The notes beneath the pieces are model-generated. The model was given only the letters and a program-made list of their open reading frames with translations. It was not told the DNA's origin and did not search any database. 64,000 nt of DNA. Source: Escherichia phage vB_EcoM_SYGD1. Positions 1-4,707 of this stretch are shown here, one piece after another (positions within the stretch are counted from its first letter, which is position 1; the number at the start of each line of letters is the position of its first letter). Made by a program: the position numbers and the translations under genes. The stretch is from the sequence record MW883059; one strand, 5' to 3'.

Positions 1-522
1 GACATTTTTGAAAATGGCTATGAAACCGATGACCGAACAGGCACAGGAACAATTGCTTTATTCGGTACTAAATTACGCTGGGATTTAACTAAAGGTTTTC
101 CTGCGGTAACAACTAAGAAGCTCGCCTGGAAAGCTTGCATTGCTGAGCTACTTTGGTTTTTATCAGGAAGCACAAATGTCAATGATTTACGATTAATTCA
201 GCATGATTCGTTAATCCAAGGCAAAACAGTTTGGGATGAAAATTACGAAAATCAGGCAAAAGATTTAGGATACCATAGTGGTGAACTTGGCCCAATTTAT
301 GGAAAACAGTGGCGCGATTTTGGCGGTGTAGATCAAATTGTAGAAGTTGTTAATCGTATTAAAACATTTCCCAACGATAGGCGTCAAATTGTGTCGGCAT
401 GGAATCCAGCTGAACTTAAATATATGGCATTACCACCTTGTCATATGTTCTATCAGTTTAATGTGCGTAATGGTTATCTTGATTTACAATGGTATCAACG
501 CAGTGTAGATGTTTTCTTGGGT
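1..522 (+). CDS. td: thymidylate synthase, exon 1 (5' end lies upstream of window)
   Basis: Frame 1 from base 1 reads DIFENGYETDDRTGTGT...ALPPCHMFYQFNVRNGYLDLQWYQRSVDVFLG (ThyA core); frame is broken at 522/523 by an intron. Confidence 0.95.
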
Positions 523-842
523 TAATTGAGGCCTAGGTATAAGGTGACTTATACTTGTAATCTATCTAAACGGGGGACCTCTCTAGTAGACAATCCCGTG
601 CTAAATTGTAGGACTACCCTTTAATAATTTCATCAGGATTAGTTACTTACCGTGTAAAATCTGATAAATGGAATTGGTTCTACATAAATGCCTAACGACT
701 ATCCCTTTGGGGAGTAGGGTCAAGTGACTCGAAACGATAGACAACTTGCTTTAACAAGTTGAAGATATAGTCTGATCTGCATGGTGACATGCAGCTGGAT
801 ATAATTCCGGGGTAAGATTAACGACCTTATCTGAACATAATG
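523..842 (+). ncRNA. group I self-splicing intron in td (320 nt, endonuclease ORF missing)
   Basis: Exon 1 ends ...TTCTTGGGT, insert starts TAATTGAGGCC and ends ...CTGAACATAATG; removing 523-842 joins ...VDVFLG to LPFNIASY in frame; matches my recollection of the T4 td intron core. Confidence 0.85.
624..695 (+). pseudogene. 3' stub of intron-encoded homing endonuclease (I-TevI-like), rest of ORF deleted
   Basis: In-frame ...ISSGLVTYRVKSDKWNWFYINA followed by TAA inside the intron; no start codon and no GIY-YIG domain upstream. Confidence 0.6.
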
Positions 843-1177: not shown

Positions 1178-1441
1178 ATGATTTTACGATTTAAAGATAC
1201 TTCTGACGTTGTTCTTTTTACACTTCCTAATCCAAGTGAGTTAGAAGTTCCAGGACCAAATCAGCCTATTATCATTTATGGCAAAAAATATTATACTCAT
1301 AAAATGACTCGTGAGTATTTTGATAATAAAATTTCTACAGTTAAAACTTCTTCTGATTGTTACTATGATATTACTGTTTTAACGGAAAAACAATATGACG
1401 AATTATCACCGCGCGGGCCGTCTATGCCAGGTAGTGAATAA
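1178..1441 (+). CDS. hypothetical protein (position of T4 nrdA.2)
   Basis: 87-codon ORF, ATG preceded by GAGGA; 3' end overlaps next ORF by 47 nt. Confidence 0.6.
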
Positions 1442-1721
1442 ATATAAATCCGACTTTGATGTTAATATTCACCGTGGTACGTTTTGGGGAAATTACGTCG
1501 GTAAAGATGCTGGCAGCCGGGAGGCTGCCATTGAATTATTCAAAAAAGATTTTATACGTCGAATTAAATCCGGAGAAATAACTAAAGCACATTTAGAGCC
1601 TTTACGTGGAATGAGGCTAGGATGCACATGTAAACCAAAGCCGTGTCATGGTGATATAATAGCTCATATAGTTAACCGATTGTTTAAAGACGATTTTCAA
1701 GTTGAGGACTTATGCAATTAA
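1395..1721 (+). CDS. DUF4326-like protein (position of T4 nrdA.1)
   Basis: 108 aa with [14 protein letters not shown] and [15 protein letters not shown] motifs, the pattern I associate with DUF4326. Confidence 0.65.
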
Positions 1722-3976
1722 TTAATGTTATCAAAAGTAGTGGTGTTTCTCAGAGCTTTGACCCGCAAAAAATTATTAAAGTTTTATCTTGGGCAGCTGA
1801 AGGAACATCAGTAGATCCTTATGAATTATATGAAAATATTAAATCTTATCTCCGTGATGGAATGACAACTGATGATATTCAGACTATTGTCATTAAGGCC
1901 GCTGCGAATTCTATTTCGGTTGAAGAGCCTGATTATCAATATGTAGCTGCACGTTGTTTAATGTTCGCTCTTCGTAAGCATGTTTATGGGCAGTATGAAC
2001 CACGTTCATTTATTGACCATATTTCTTACTGTGTAAATGAAGGTAAATATGACCCTGAATTATTGTCAAAATATTCAGCAGAAGAAATTACATTTTTAGA
2101 ATCAAAAATTAAGCACGAGCGGGATATGGAATTTACTTATTCCGGGGCGATGCAATTAAAAGAAAAATATCTAGTTAAAGATAAAACCACTGGTCAAATT
2201 TATGAAACTCCACAGTTTGCATTTATGACTATTGGAATGGCATTGCATCAAGATGAACCTGTTGATAGATTAAAACATGTTATCCGTTTTTATGAAGCGG
2301 TATCTACTCGACAGATTTCATTACCAACTCCTATTATGGCTGGTTGCCGTACTCCAACTCGGCAGTTTAGTTCATGTGTTGTTATTGAGGCAGGCGATTC
2401 ACTGAAGTCTATCAATAAGGCTTCTGCTTCAATTGTTGAATATATCTCTAAACGCGCTGGAATTGGTATTAACGTTGGTATGATTCGTGCTGAAGGTTCT
2501 AAGATTGGCATGGGTGAAGTACGCCATACTGGTGTTATTCCTTTTTGGAAACATTTTCAGACTGCTGTTAAATCATGCTCACAGGGTGGAATTCGTGGCG
2601 GCGCTGCTACTGCTTATTATCCTATTTGGCATTTGGAAGTTGAAAATCTTCTTGTTTTGAAAAATAACAAAGGCGTAGAAGAAAACCGTATCCGTCATAT
2701 GGATTATGGCGTCCAGTTGAATGATTTGATGATGGAACGTTTTGGAAAGAACGACTACATTACTTTGTTTAGTCCGCATGAAATGGGTGGCGAGCTTTAT
2801 TATTCTTATTTTAAAGACCAAGACCGTTTCCGCGAATTATACGAAGCAGCAGAAAAAGACCCTAATATTCGCAAAAAGCGTATTAAAGCCCGTGAACTAT
2901 TTGAATTACTCATGACTGAACGATCAGGAACAGCAAGGATTTATGTGCAGTTCATTGATAATACGAATAATTATACTCCGTTTATTCGTGAAAAGGCACC
3001 TATTCGTCAGAGTAACTTGTGTTGTGAAATTGCTATTCCAACAAATGATGTGAATAGTCCTGATGCTGAAATTGGATTGTGTACTCTCTCTGCATTCGTA
3101 CTAGATAATTTTGACTGGCAAGACCAAGATAAAATTAATGAATTGGCAGAAGTTCAAGTTCGTGCTCTTGATAATCTGTTGGATTACCAAGGATATCCAG
3201 TTCCTGAAGCAGAAAAAGCTAAAAAGCGTCGTAACCTCGGTGTAGGTGTTACCAACTATGCAGCTTGGCTGGCAAGTAACTTTGCTTCTTATGAAGATGC
3301 TAATGATTTAACACATGAACTATTTGAGAGATTACAGTATGGACTCATTAAAGCATCCATTAAGCTCGCAAAAGAAAAAGGACCTTGCGAATATTATTCA
3401 GACACTCGTTGGTCTCGAGGCGAATTACCTATCGACTGGTACAATAAAAAGATTGACCAAATCGCAGCTCCAAAATACGTTTGTGACTGGTCGGCGCTGC
3501 GGGAAGACCTTAAGCTCTTTGGCATCCGTAATAGCACATTATCAGCACTTATGCCATGTGAGTCATCTTCCCAAGTTTCTAACAGTACAAACGGTATCGA
3601 GCCTCCACGTGGACCAGTCTCTGTTAAAGAATCAAAAGAGGGTTCCTTTAATCAAGTCGTGCCCAATATTGAGCATAACATAGACCTATATGATTATACA
3701 TGGAAATTAGCTAAGAAAGGTAATAAACCTTATCTTACGCAGGTAGCTATTATGCTGAAATGGGTATGTCAATCAGCTTCAGCGAATACATACTATGACC
3801 CGCAGATTTTTCCAAAAGGAAAGGTTCCAATGTCAATAATGATTGATGACATGTTATACGGATGGTATTATGGCATTAAAAATTTCTATTATCATAATAC
3901 CCGTGATGGTTCTGGTACTGATGATTATGAAATAGAAACTCCTAAAGCCGACGATTGTGCAGCGTGTAAATTGTAA
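1712..3976 (+). CDS. nrdA: ribonucleoside-diphosphate reductase large subunit (class Ia)
   Basis: 754 aa; GAGGA RBS; active-site NLCCEIA; C-terminal redox Cys pair ...ADDCAACKL. Confidence 0.95.
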   Translation: MQLINVIKSSGVSQSFDPQKIIKVLSWAAEGTSVDPYELYENIKSYLRDGMTTDDIQTIVIKAAANSISVEEPDYQYVAARCLMFALRKHVYGQYEPRSFIDHISYCVNEGKYDPELLSKYSAEEITFLESKIKHERDMEFTYSGAMQLKEKYLVKDKTTGQIYETPQFAFMTIGMALHQDEPVDRLKHVIRFYEAVSTRQISLPTPIMAGCRTPTRQFSSCVVIEAGDSLKSINKASASIVEYISKRAGIGINVGMIRAEGSKIGMGEVRHTGVIPFWKHFQTAVKSCSQGGIRGGAATAYYPIWHLEVENLLVLKNNKGVEENRIRHMDYGVQLNDLMMERFGKNDYITLFSPHEMGGELYYSYFKDQDRFRELYEAAEKDPNIRKKRIKARELFELLMTERSGTARIYVQFIDNTNNYTPFIREKAPIRQSNLCCEIAIPTNDVNSPDAEIGLCTLSAFVLDNFDWQDQDKINELAEVQVRALDNLLDYQGYPVPEAEKAKKRRNLGVGVTNYAAWLASNFASYEDANDLTHELFERLQYGLIKASIKLAKEKGPCEYYSDTRWSRGELPIDWYNKKIDQIAAPKYVCDWSALREDLKLFGIRNSTLSALMPCESSSQVSNSTNGIEPPRGPVSVKESKEGSFNQVVPNIEHNIDLYDYTWKLAKKGNKPYLTQVAIMLKWVCQSASANTYYDPQIFPKGKVPMSIMIDDMLYGWYYGIKNFYYHNTRDGSGTDDYEIETPKADDCAACKL

Positions 3977-4707
3977 TGAATTATCAAAAAATCTATAATG
4001 ACCTAATTTCCCGAGCTCAGGCTCGGGAACATTTATCCGAGTATAAAGAGACACATCATATAGTCCCTAAATGCATGGGAGGTTCTGATGATAAAGAAAA
4101 TTTAGTTGAATTAACAGCTAGAGAACATTTTATAGCGCATCTATTACTATGCAAGATAAATGAAGGCCATTTTGGTCTTGCCTCTGCGTTAACGTTAATG
4201 GCAACAGATAAAGCTGGTAATAGAATTAATAACAGATTGTATAGCTTGCACAGAAAATTATTTGCTAAAGCTAATTCTGATTTCTTTAAGAAATATTGGA
4301 AAAATAATCCTCATCCTAGAGGAATGTTAGGCAAGCATCATAAAAACGAAACTAAACAACATGTATCAAACGTGAATAGGTATGCATGCCCATCTATCGA
4401 AATACATAAATTCTCATTAGATGGGGATTTCATAGAAACCTTTCACTCTATTGCCGCAGCGTCCAGGTCAGTTAATGGAAACGGGTCAAATATCAAATAT
4501 TGTGCTGAGGGTAAATTTCAATATGCCTATGGATTTCGATGGGCATATCAACTTGATGCAAAGTTTGACAAAATACAACCAAGAGATTATAAAGGAATCC
4601 GCGGTAAGAAATGGATTAATAATGGAAGTGAATGCACGCTTATAGGTAAAGATGATATTATACCGCCAGGTTGGAAACGCGGCAGAATTTTAAAGAGGAA
4701 AAATTAA
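3976..4707 (+). CDS. HNH homing endonuclease, free-standing (mobE-like, between nrdA and nrdB)
   Basis: 243 aa; start overlaps nrdA stop (TAATG); HNH motif HHIVPKCMGGSDDKENLVELTAREHFIAH. Confidence 0.8.
   Translation: MNYQKIYNDLISRAQAREHLSEYKETHHIVPKCMGGSDDKENLVELTAREHFIAHLLLCKINEGHFGLASALTLMATDKAGNRINNRLYSLHRKLFAKANSDFFKKYWKNNPHPRGMLGKHHKNETKQHVSNVNRYACPSIEIHKFSLDGDFIETFHSIAAASRSVNGNGSNIKYCAEGKFQYAYGFRWAYQLDAKFDKIQPRDYKGIRGKKWINNGSECTLIGKDDIIPPGWKRGRILKRKN

What the first reader, a model, noticed from the sequence alone, without database searches (positions are those of the whole stretch)
1178..1721. DUF4326-like protein between td and nrdA, overlapping the preceding ORF by 47 nt
The 1395-1721 product contains [14 protein letters not shown] and [15 protein letters not shown], the signature I associate with DUF4326 proteins (function unknown; I believe, but am not sure, that they share a fold with NADAR). 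The 47-nt out-of-frame overlap between 1178-1441 and 1395-1721 is unusually long for T4 gene coupling, which normally uses 1-4 nt. It could reflect a programmed or mutational frameshift joining two halves of one protein.
Basis: partly seen in the sequence, partly recalled or inferred. Interest (0 to 1): 0.5.

Follow-up and report, generated by a model that had tools for sequence, protein, structure and literature searches.

The report
T4 nrdA.2/nrdA.1: two overlapping genes
The two overlapping reading frames are the long-annotated phage T4 genes nrdA.2 and nrdA.1, two separate proteins and not a frameshifted single one; nrdA.1 is a genuine DUF4326 protein whose biochemical function has never been tested.

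Summary
ORF 1178-1441 (87 aa, Pfam DUF5496, E 1.9e-58) and ORF 1395-1721 (108 aa, Pfam DUF4326, E 1.3e-21) lie between td and nrdA and overlap by 47 nt, in different frames. They are T4 genes nrdA.2 and nrdA.1. T4, AR1 and RB3 annotate the same lengths and the same overlap, and about 500 sequenced relatives carry this DNA.

The frameshift-fusion idea is refuted:
- In Mosigvirus moha the two genes abut by 1 nt (TAATG).
- In Gaprivervirus VR26 their order is inverted, with a 59-nt gap.
- Most of the relatives fetched carry nrdA.1 alone, and JM10 carries nrdA.2 alone.
- No fused protein turned up in a 5.8-billion-protein collection.
- Published T4 proteomics detects both proteins, in different temporal classes.

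The overlap is real and specific to Tequatrovirus. ATG1395 is the only in-frame start upstream of an invariant Cys. It is conserved, without indels, in the window and 14 related T4-type sequences. The overlap looks like the product of a small junction rearrangement.

Identity and arrangement are already known. The function is still only a prediction: a Cys-loop enzyme acting on nucleotide or ADP-ribose sugar-phosphates.

The parts
1178..1441 (+). nrdA.2, 87 aa, Pfam DUF5496 / PHROG 2458. Function unknown. Strong Shine-Dalgarno GAGGA at 1170-1174.
   Evidence: Annotated as nrdA.2 in AR1 and RB3 with the same length. SD duplex -6.0 kcal/mol. Found in 672 phage records, nearly all infecting enterobacteria (chiefly Escherichia and Shigella); the loci examined belong to Tequatrovirus, Mosigvirus and Gaprivervirus.
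1395..1721 (+). nrdA.1, 108 aa, a stand-alone DUF4326 domain (PHROG 464).
   Evidence: Annotated as nrdA.1 in AR1 and RB3. tblastn finds relatives in 1966 phage records. The family has 5044 cluster representatives at E<=1e-3. AF2 model pLDDT 91.2.
1395..1441 (+). The 47-nt dual-coding overlap. It encodes the NrdA.2 tail ([15 protein letters not shown]) and the NrdA.1 head ([16 protein letters not shown]), with nrdA.1 in the +1 frame.
   Evidence: Read directly from the sequence. The length is identical in the window and 14 related T4-type sequences, with no indel. The 5' half varies in both proteins and the 3' half is fixed.
1395..1397 (+). Start codon of nrdA.1. It lies across the Tyr-Asp codons (TAT GAC) of nrdA.2 and has only a weak SD (GGA at 1384-1386).
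   Evidence: It is the only ATG/GTG/TTG between the in-frame stop TAA 1380-1382 and the invariant Cys11 codon at 1425-1427. It is conserved in all T4-type sequences. SD duplex is -3.5 kcal/mol, and 29% of all ATG triplets in the first 20 kb do as well.
1395..1424 (+). Lineage-specific N-terminal extension of NrdA.1 (residues 1-10). Predicted disordered, and variable in sequence.
   Evidence: Mean pLDDT of residues 1-10 is 63, against 91-98 for residues 11-100 and 78 for the C-terminal tail 101-108. Variants seen: [40 protein letters not shown]. Most relatives start 'MK.C', 3 codons before the Cys.
1473..1493 (+). Conserved RGTFWGN loop (R27...G32 N33). R27, G32 and N33 are invariant in the 144-sequence alignment (A6); N33 is invariant in every alignment made, and R27 and G32 are nearly so in the broader A5 set.
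   Evidence: Alignments A1, A5, A6.
1620..1655 (+). G76-C77-T-C79-K-P81-K-P-C84-H85-G86-D87: strand end, then a 7-residue Cys-rich loop, then a helix start. This is the putative active-site or metal-binding loop.
   Evidence: C77 and C84 are invariant in every alignment; C79 is invariant in A1, A4 and A5 and at least 90% conserved in A6. P81, H85, G86 and D87 are invariant or nearly so. The AF2 model has strand 74-77 and helix 85-96. RapZ has the same layout, GC-TGGKHRS-helix.
1712..1721 (+). 10-nt overlap between the end of nrdA.1 and the start of nrdA (SD GAGGA just upstream).
   Evidence: The same overlap is annotated in AR1.

Best explanation
These are two independent, separately translated early genes of a T4-type (Tequatrovirus) phage: nrdA.2 (DUF5496) and nrdA.1 (DUF4326).

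Origin of the overlap (inferred). In the ancestral arrangement, still seen in most relatives, nrdA.1 starts 'MK.C' three codons before a conserved Cys and is coupled to the upstream gene by a 1- or 4-nt overlap. In the Tequatrovirus lineage a small rearrangement of the junction (net -7 nt relative to Mosigvirus moha) removed the TAATG stop/start and its GAGGA Shine-Dalgarno. nrdA.2 now reads on to a TAA lying inside the conserved V-N-K codons of nrdA.1. nrdA.1 now starts at a new ATG 30 nt upstream of the Cys codon, formed across the Tyr-Asp codons of nrdA.2. The 47-nt overlap therefore encodes two unconstrained tails, a disordered NrdA.1 head and the NrdA.2 tail, plus the first conserved residues of NrdA.1.

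Initiation at ATG1395 (inferred). It probably relies on a weak SD in an unstructured stretch, or on ribosomes that have just translated nrdA.2.

Function (inferred, not shown). NrdA.1 is a minimal strand / Cys-loop / helix domain whose nearest solved fold is RapZ-C. It most likely binds or processes a phosphorylated ribose moiety of a nucleotide, an RNA end or an ADP-ribose derivative. C77 would be the nucleophile, or C77/C79/C84/H85 a metal site. It would act as an accessory to phage nucleotide metabolism or counter-defence.
For: Identity:
- Pfam and PHROG hits.
- Identical gene models in AR1 and RB3 and in T4 itself (nrdA.1 142671..142997, nrdA.2 142951..143214; supplement of PMC9697503).
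- 513 phage records match the DNA, 499 of them at 95% identity or more.

Independence of the two genes:
- moha: 1-nt overlap.
- VR26: inverted order with a 59-nt gap.
- JM10: nrdA.2 only.
- Entb_45, MY02, ZZ1 and about 35 IMG/VR loci: nrdA.1 only.
- nrdA.1 is found in 1966 phage records, nrdA.2 in 672.
- All nrdA.1 homologues are 125 aa or shorter with PF14216 only. All nrdA.2 homologues are 91 aa or shorter with PF17600 only.
- T4 proteomics classes NrdA.2 as a 'middle' protein and NrdA.1 as a 'late' protein, both from early RNA.

Start codon:
- C11 is invariant in 37 of 37 subfamily members.
- ATG1395 is the only possible in-frame start upstream of it.
- It is conserved, with no indel, in the window and 14 related T4-type sequences.

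Origin of the overlap: DNA alignment against moha and the junction survey.

Disordered head: pLDDT 63 for residues 1-10 and variable sequence.

Little RNA structure over the overlap: z = +1.24.

Function:
- Invariant N33/C77/C84, and invariant or near-invariant R27/C79/H85/D87.
- Fusions to mSLOG, YAcAr, NADAR, DprA and TIR domains.
- Gene neighbours: class Ia and class III ribonucleotide reductase, thioredoxin-like, dNMP kinase, dCMP deaminase, Macro, Thg1, SLOG.
- Published predictions for DUF4326 (PMC9503650, PMC7824862).
Against: - No direct mapping of the NrdA.1 N-terminus was available, and the proteomics tables do not give peptides.
- The SD of ATG1395 is no better than that of 29% of random ATGs.
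- The direction of the junction change (T4-type derived) is inferred from outgroup majority, not proven.
- Gene contexts are heterogeneous, and some phages lack or disrupt the gene (JM10; HY03 allele P0050).
- No biochemical or genetic experiment on NrdA.1 turned up in the literature searches made.
Confidence: 0.82

Rival explanations
1. A programmed or mutational +1 frameshift in the overlap fuses NrdA.2 and NrdA.1 into one protein, so the two ORFs are halves of one gene.
For: There is a 47-nt out-of-frame overlap with open reading in both frames between 1383 and 1438. The SD in front of ATG1395 is weak.
Against: - The two families occur alone, in inverted order with a gap, or abutting by 1 nt.
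- There is no fused homologue in either protein search or among the 150 best family representatives. The 40 longest of these were scanned against Pfam and carry other partners, never DUF5496.
- The window and 14 related T4-type sequences keep the ATG and both frames with no indel, and about 500 genomes share the arrangement, so it is not a sequencing error.
- My reading of the nrdA.2-frame codons 1382-1441 finds no X XXY YYZ slippery heptamer, and a -1 slip would not reach the nrdA.1 frame in any case.
- No stimulatory RNA structure is predicted.
- T4 proteomics gives the two proteins different temporal classes.
Confidence: 0.02
2. The 47-nt overlap is an annotation artefact. NrdA.1 really starts at GTG1434 (V14), which would give an ordinary 8-nt overlap.
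For: GTG1434 is in frame and conserved. An AGG lies just upstream, with a duplex of -3.9 kcal/mol. The Pfam domain match begins at residue 12.
Against: - C11 and V14 are invariant, and V13 nearly so, across 37 subfamily members that span 53-96% identity. In relatives with no overlap these residues lie inside the ORF.
- T4-type sequences keep GRLC[QR]VV while the neighbouring residues 2-8 drift. That implies selection in the nrdA.1 frame upstream of 1434.
- The AGG sits only 2 nt from the GTG and is lost in L010 (CCAAGTAGTG).
- A GTG start would remove half of strand 12-15 of the model.
Confidence: 0.08
3. NrdA.1 is not an enzyme. It is a small zinc-binding (C77/C79/C84/H85) adaptor or regulator that binds ribonucleotide reductase or another component of the T4 dNTP-synthesising complex.
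For: - Three Cys and a His lie within nine residues, and the phosphatase Arg is absent.
- The gene repeatedly sits next to reductase genes of different classes and at different positions: before nrdA in T4-type phages, after nrdB in Roth90, between nrdD and nrdG in UB and RaK2, and after reductase plus a thioredoxin-like gene in LAh_9.
- The closest fold, RapZ-C, is a ligand-sensing adaptor domain (its role is from my own knowledge).
Against: - Recurrent fusion to enzymatic nucleotide or ADP-ribose-processing domains (SLOG, NADAR, TIR) suggests a catalytic or substrate-binding role in a pathway.
- R27, N33 and D87, invariant or nearly so, look like an active site.
- Many homologues are not near reductase genes.
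- I could not inspect model coordinates to test the metal-site geometry.
Confidence: 0.2

Closest known systems
Bacteriophage T4 genes nrdA.1 (UniProt P32279) and nrdA.2 (P32280)
   Same: Same position between td and nrdA, same lengths (327 and 264 nt) and the same 47-nt overlap (T4 coordinates in the supplement of PMC9697503; AR1 and RB3). The proteins are 95-100% identical to many Tequatrovirus entries.
   Different: Only point substitutions, for example Q12 here where most have R12, and D10 in NrdA.2 where most have G10. The window's td carries an ORF-less intron, unlike RB3 (intron with I-TevI) or AR1 (no intron).
Pfam DUF4326 (PF14216)
   Same: Full-length domain match, 77.5 bits. The invariant N of the GNP motif and the C..CHGD motif are both present.
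   Different: The T4-type subfamily has WGNY instead of WGNP, a subfamily-invariant Cys11, and an extra disordered N-terminal extension of seven residues relative to the common MK.C start. It is stand-alone, whereas many members are fused to SLOG or NADAR domains.
RapZ C-terminal domain (PDB 5o5q/5o5s). [quoted passage not shown] That paper was not held and could not be read.
NADAR domain (PF08719; PDB 8bau, 2b3w, 8bat)
   Different: It is a separate domain fused to DUF4326, not the same one (P0207: DUF4326 at 7-85 plus NADAR at 109-243). No Pfam NADAR hit at E<=1. Profile-profile probability 0.1%.
Other long same-strand gene overlaps in T4-type genomes (for example 33/dsbA 23 nt, cd.5/pseT 31 nt)
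   Same: Out-of-frame overlap of tens of nucleotides between co-transcribed early genes.
   Different: At 47 nt this is the second longest of 35 overlaps in the 50 kb examined. It is shown here to be lineage-specific, with relatives having 1-4 nt junctions at the same place.

Membership tests
Pfam DUF4326 (PF14216) | Profile HMM score above the gathering threshold over the whole domain | tested here: met
   77.5 bits against a cut-off of 25, E 1.3e-21, residues 12-90 on profile positions 2-81 of 82.
Pfam DUF4326 (PF14216) | Conserved GNP-type motif and C..CHGD motif | tested here: met
   N33, C77 and C84 are invariant in every alignment made; C79 is invariant in A1, A4 and A5 and at least 90% conserved in A6; H85, G86 and D87 are invariant or nearly so. 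The window has WGN-Y (Pro replaced by Tyr, as in the whole T4-type subfamily) and CKPKPCHGD.
Pfam DUF5496 (PF17600), for ORF 1178-1441 | Profile HMM score above the gathering threshold | tested here: met
   195 bits against a cut-off of 27, residues 1-87 on profile positions 1-87 of 87.
NADAR (PF08719) | Sequence or profile similarity to NADAR domains | tested here: not met
   No Pfam hit at E<=1. hhalign of 199 DUF4326 domains against 4 NADAR domains gives probability 0.1%. The small NADAR alignment limits the power of this test.
NADAR (PF08719) | Same fold as solved NADAR structures | tested here: inconclusive
Rhodanese / Cys-phosphatase superfamily | Strand, then Cys-containing loop, then helix at the active site | tested here: met
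   The AF2 model (pLDDT 91) has strand 74-77 ending in C77, loop 78-84 and helix 85-96.
Rhodanese / Cys-phosphatase superfamily | CX5R signature (Arg six residues after the Cys) | tested here: not met
   C77+6 is P83 and C79+6 is H85. There is no conserved Arg in the loop.
Rhodanese / Cys-phosphatase superfamily | Significant structural match to solved members | tested here: inconclusive
RapZ-C / DUF488 / DUF4326 clade (as published; recalled from memory) | RapZ-C as nearest structural relative | tested here: inconclusive
Programmed ribosomal frameshift gene | Slippery site and stimulator in the overlap, plus fused or unshifted orthologues elsewhere | tested here: not met
   No slippery heptamer in the nrdA.2 frame (my reading). 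RNA fold z = +1.24. No fused orthologue. Gene order is inverted in VR26.
Enzymatic activity of DUF4326 (phosphate or ribose processing) | Demonstrated catalysis | not testable with these tools
   Only published predictions exist (PMC9503650, PMC7824862).

The most novel reading that the evidence does not exclude
NrdA.1 is an active Cys-loop enzyme of the RapZ-C/DUF4326 type. It would remove or transfer a phosphate on a ribose of a nucleotide, an RNA end or an ADP-ribose-derived molecule. In T4-type phages it would either tune the deoxynucleotide pathway, hence its recurrent place beside class Ia and class III ribonucleotide reductase genes, or destroy an NAD-derived immune signal. The T4-specific 47-nt overlap would set its level through reinitiation by ribosomes finishing nrdA.2.
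Probability: 0.25. Interest if true: 0.55.

Novelty: already known. Interest (0 to 1): 0.15.

Why it matters
As a genome feature it is ordinary. The gene pair, its overlap and the DUF4326 assignment are all in public annotation, and the frameshift idea can be retired.

What remains of value is a well-posed open question. DUF4326 is a very large family (over 5000 clusters at 50% identity) found in phages, giant viruses and bacteria, and its function has never been tested. T4 carries a minimal stand-alone copy in the most tractable phage system, next to the ribonucleotide reductase genes. A single synonymous change in nrdA.2 (T1396C) would knock out its start codon cleanly.

Tried and rejected
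- Frameshift signals. I read the nrdA.2-frame codons 1382-1441 for slippery heptamers and +1-prone sites and found none. Folding 1370-1460 as RNA gave less structure than shuffles (z = +1.24).
- Promoter and terminator scan of 800-2000: only weak consensus matches and no terminator.
- PDB by sequence profile: nothing below E 0.18.
- Foldseek against PDB: nothing significant.
- The afdb50 library was not available.
- hhalign of DUF4326 against NADAR domains cut from fusion proteins gave probability 0.1%. Against a single RapZ-C sequence it also gave 0.1%, and the only aligned stretch was [12 protein letters not shown] / FDVRFLPNPHWD.
- NCBIfam and PADLOC: no hits for either protein.
- A second IMG/VR scan, using NrdA.2, returned the same five T4-type contigs.
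- The one metagenome scan gave seven more junctions, all of the T4 type.
- The key paper on the family (Burroughs & Aravind 2023, lqad029 / PMC10034599) is not held. What I say about its RapZ-C/DUF488/DUF4326 clade is from memory.
- Model coordinates are not exposed, so I could not test whether C77/C79/C84/H85 have metal-site geometry.
- GTG1434 as the true start was considered and rejected as the main start (see rivals).

Full report
**What is there**

The window opens in the td gene of a T4-type phage.
- td exon 1 ends near 520. A group I intron follows (Rfam RF00028, 513-794, 70.3 bits). Exon 2 runs 840-1154.
- Next come ORF 1178-1441 (87 aa), ORF 1395-1721 (108 aa), nrdA (1712-3976), an HNH/NUMOD1 endonuclease ORF (3976-4707) and nrdB.
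- The two small ORFs overlap by 47 nt (1395-1441). The second lies in the +1 frame relative to the first.
- Pfam assigns the first ORF to DUF5496 (195 bits) and the second to DUF4326 (77.5 bits). PHROGs agrees: families 2458 and 464, both of unknown function.

**It is the known T4 pair nrdA.2 / nrdA.1**

- Megablast of 1100-1800 finds 513 phage records. Of these, 489 cover at least 80% of the query and 499 are at least 95% identical.
- AR1 and RB3 annotate nrdA.2 (264 nt) and nrdA.1 (327 nt) with exactly this overlap.
- T4 itself has nrdA.1 at 142671..142997 and nrdA.2 at 142951..143214, again 47 nt (supplement of PMC9697503).
- The overlap is therefore not a sequencing error in this window.

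**Are they halves of one gene? No**

- In Mosigvirus moha the same two genes abut by 1 nt (TAATG), with a GAGGA Shine-Dalgarno.
- In Gaprivervirus VR26 the order is inverted: nrdA.1, a 59-nt gap, then nrdA.2.
- JM10 has nrdA.2 but no nrdA.1.
- Entb_45, MY02, ZZ1 and about 35 IMG/VR loci have nrdA.1 without nrdA.2.
- tblastn finds nrdA.1 relatives in 1966 phage records but nrdA.2 relatives in only 672.
- In the 5.8-billion-protein collection every NrdA.1 relative is 125 aa or shorter and carries PF14216 only. Every NrdA.2 relative is 91 aa or shorter and carries PF17600 only.
- Among the 150 best representatives of the whole DUF4326 family, the 40 long ones scanned against Pfam carry other partner domains, never DUF5496.
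- The overlap has no slippery heptamer. A -1 slip would not reach the nrdA.1 frame. The RNA is less structured than shuffled controls.
- T4 time-resolved proteomics lists both proteins. NrdA.2 is a 'middle' protein and NrdA.1 a 'late' protein, both from early RNA. One fused polypeptide would not behave that way.

**Is the 47-nt overlap real, or is the start mis-called?**

- In an alignment of 37 subfamily members (53-96% identity to the window protein), C11 and V14 are invariant and V13 nearly so.
- In the window, the nrdA.1 frame has a stop at 1380-1382. Its only start codon before the C11 codon (1425-1427) is ATG1395.
- The window and 14 related T4-type sequences (AR1, RB3, five IMG/VR contigs and seven metagenome contigs) all keep that ATG, the same spacing and the same nrdA.2 stop, with no indel. 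The junction was read directly in 13 of the 14 and from the junction survey in all of the non-metagenome loci.
- Residues 2-8 of NrdA.1 drift ([40 protein letters not shown]) and so does the NrdA.2 tail, but GRLC[QR]VVNKY stays fixed.
- The codons upstream of GTG1434 are thus under selection in the nrdA.1 frame, so ATG1395 is the start.
- Its SD is weak: -3.5 kcal/mol, against -6.0 for nrdA.2 and -5.9 for nrdA, and 29% of all ATG triplets do as well.
- Several relatives with 1-4 nt junctions also have weak SDs. This gene seems generally to depend on upstream translation.

**How the overlap arose (inference)**

- Most relatives start NrdA.1 as 'MK.C', three codons before the Cys, with a 1- or 4-nt overlap to whatever gene lies upstream.
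- Aligned to moha, the T4-type junction lacks the ATGAAAATG/TAATG segment and the GAGGA (net -7 nt).
- The new ATG is formed by TAT GAC (Tyr-Asp) in nrdA.2, where moha has TAC GAA.
- nrdA.2 now terminates at a TAA embedded in the invariant GTG AAT AAA (V-N-K) codons of nrdA.1.
- NrdA.2 of the T4 type accordingly has a longer, non-conserved tail than the moha protein.
- The new NrdA.1 head is predicted to be disordered: pLDDT 63 for residues 1-10, against 91-98 for residues 11-100.

**How unusual is 47 nt?**

In 50 kb of the AR1 annotation I count 35 same-strand overlaps. Twenty-three are 1 or 4 nt. The rest are 8, 8, 10, 10, 10, 14, 23, 28, 31, 35, 47 and 95 nt. So 47 nt is in the upper tail but is not unique.

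**What NrdA.1 is**

*Size and conservation.*
- The family is very large: 5044 cluster representatives at E<=1e-3.
- Across all the alignments made, N33, C77 and C84 are invariant.
- C79 is invariant in three of the four and at least 90% conserved in the fourth.
- V14, N15, D22, I25, R27, G32, P81, H85, G86 and D87 are invariant or nearly so.

*Fusion partners.* Among 40 longer members the partner domains are:
- mSLOG (8);
- YAcAr-SLOG (6);
- NADAR (5);
- DprA-type SLOG (2);
- TIR (1);
- DarT1-associated NADAR (1);
- RNA polymerase (1).

This reproduces the published observation. That work predicts a domain of the rhodanese-phosphatase superfamily that processes phosphates on ribose in ADP-ribose derivatives (PMC9503650, PMC7824862).

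*Fold.*
- A first AF2 model from 37 sequences was mediocre (pLDDT 83). A second, from 144 sequences, is confident (pLDDT 91.2, pTM 0.85).
- Elements of the second model: strand 12-15, short strands around 23-29, helices 42-59 and 64-70, strand 74-77, a 7-residue loop, helix 85-96 and helix 103-106.
- RapZ has the layout ...IGC-TGGKHRS-helix, a CX5RS signature. NrdA.1 has ...[10 protein letters not shown]-helix, with the same loop length but no Arg.
- Sequence-level links could not be shown: hhalign gives 0.1% to NADAR domains and 0.1% to a single RapZ-C sequence.
- My reading is that the NADAR 'same fold' idea comes from the frequent fusion of the two domains and is not supported. The RapZ-C/phosphatase-like assignment is plausible but is not proven here.

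**Gene context**

- DUF4326 genes lie before nrdA in T4-type phages, directly after nrdB in Roth90, and between nrdD and nrdG in the jumbo phages UB and RaK2.
- In LAh_9 the gene follows reductase genes and a thioredoxin-like gene, and precedes a nucleoside deoxyribosyltransferase.
- In EK010 a dNMP kinase gene lies one gene downstream; in KLEB27-3 the gene lies beside a DprA-like SLOG gene.
- In uncultured phage contigs the gene lies near dCMP deaminase and Macro, next to Thg1, and within 2.4 kb of an Acb2/Tad1-like gene.
- Other contexts are uninformative.
- Reductase genes lie within 3 kb in four of the nine distant annotated phage loci examined, more than I would expect by chance. Nucleotide-metabolism genes cluster in phages anyway, and the lineages are not independent, so this is only suggestive.

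**Verdict**

The DUF4326 call is right, the NADAR-fold remark is not supported, and the frameshift hypothesis is refuted. The feature is the known T4 nrdA.2/nrdA.1 pair.

The small additions made here are:
- the demonstration that ATG1395 is forced by conservation;
- the finding that the 47-nt overlap is a Tequatrovirus-specific derived junction;
- the finding that the overlap encodes a disordered, drifting head and tail.

The biochemical role of NrdA.1 remains a prediction.

Noticed in passing
window 513-839: The td gene is interrupted by a group I intron (Rfam RF00028, 513-794, 70.3 bits) of only about 320 nt. It has no I-TevI reading frame. RB3 has the intron with I-TevI, and AR1 has an intronless td.
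   Followed up: partly
window 3976-4707: A 243-aa ORF with HNH and NUMOD1 matches lies between nrdA and nrdB, in the position of a mobE-like free-standing homing endonuclease. Its ATG shares one base with the nrdA stop codon, and its SD is weak (-2.5 kcal/mol). The nrdB start listed as TTG 4671 overlaps it, and a later ATG is probably the real start.
   Followed up: partly
window 1456-1581 (alternative frame inside nrdA.1); proteins P0027, P0041, P0050: Some database proteins are frameshifted nrdA.1 alleles that begin or end in this alternative frame, for example the 61-aa product of phage HY03. These are either real disruptions of nrdA.1 or assembly errors. None joins nrdA.2 to nrdA.1.
   Followed up: partly
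window 1409-1416: A GC-rich palindrome, CCGCGCGG, sits in the variable half of the overlap, in an AT-rich genome. It is not conserved among T4-type relatives (CCACGCGG, CCAGCGTGG, CCAACCGG), so it is probably without function.
   Followed up: yes
L052 2992-3029; L053 3287-3315; L054 3287-3309; L056 3305-3366; L055 3308-3333: As annotated, DUF4326 genes of other phages also overlap a neighbour by tens of nucleotides: 38 nt with nrdB in Roth90, 29 and 23 nt with nrdG in UB and RaK2, 62 nt in LAh_9 and 26 nt in PMBT18. The start codons in these annotations were not checked.
   Followed up: no
L075 6656-6886; L076 4977-5429; L077 3249-3986: In uncultured phage contigs of about 90-105 kb, the DUF4326 gene lies near an Acb2/Tad1-hairpin gene (an anti-CBASS/anti-Thoeris sponge family) or a Macro-domain gene, or directly after a Thg1-like gene. 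These are hints of counter-defence or RNA-repair contexts.
   Followed up: no
L005 1501-1843 (phage JM10): This Mosigvirus keeps nrdA.2 but has lost nrdA.1, leaving an 87-nt gap before nrdA. Its td carries an intron with a homing endonuclease. nrdA.1 is therefore dispensable in at least some relatives.
   Followed up: partly
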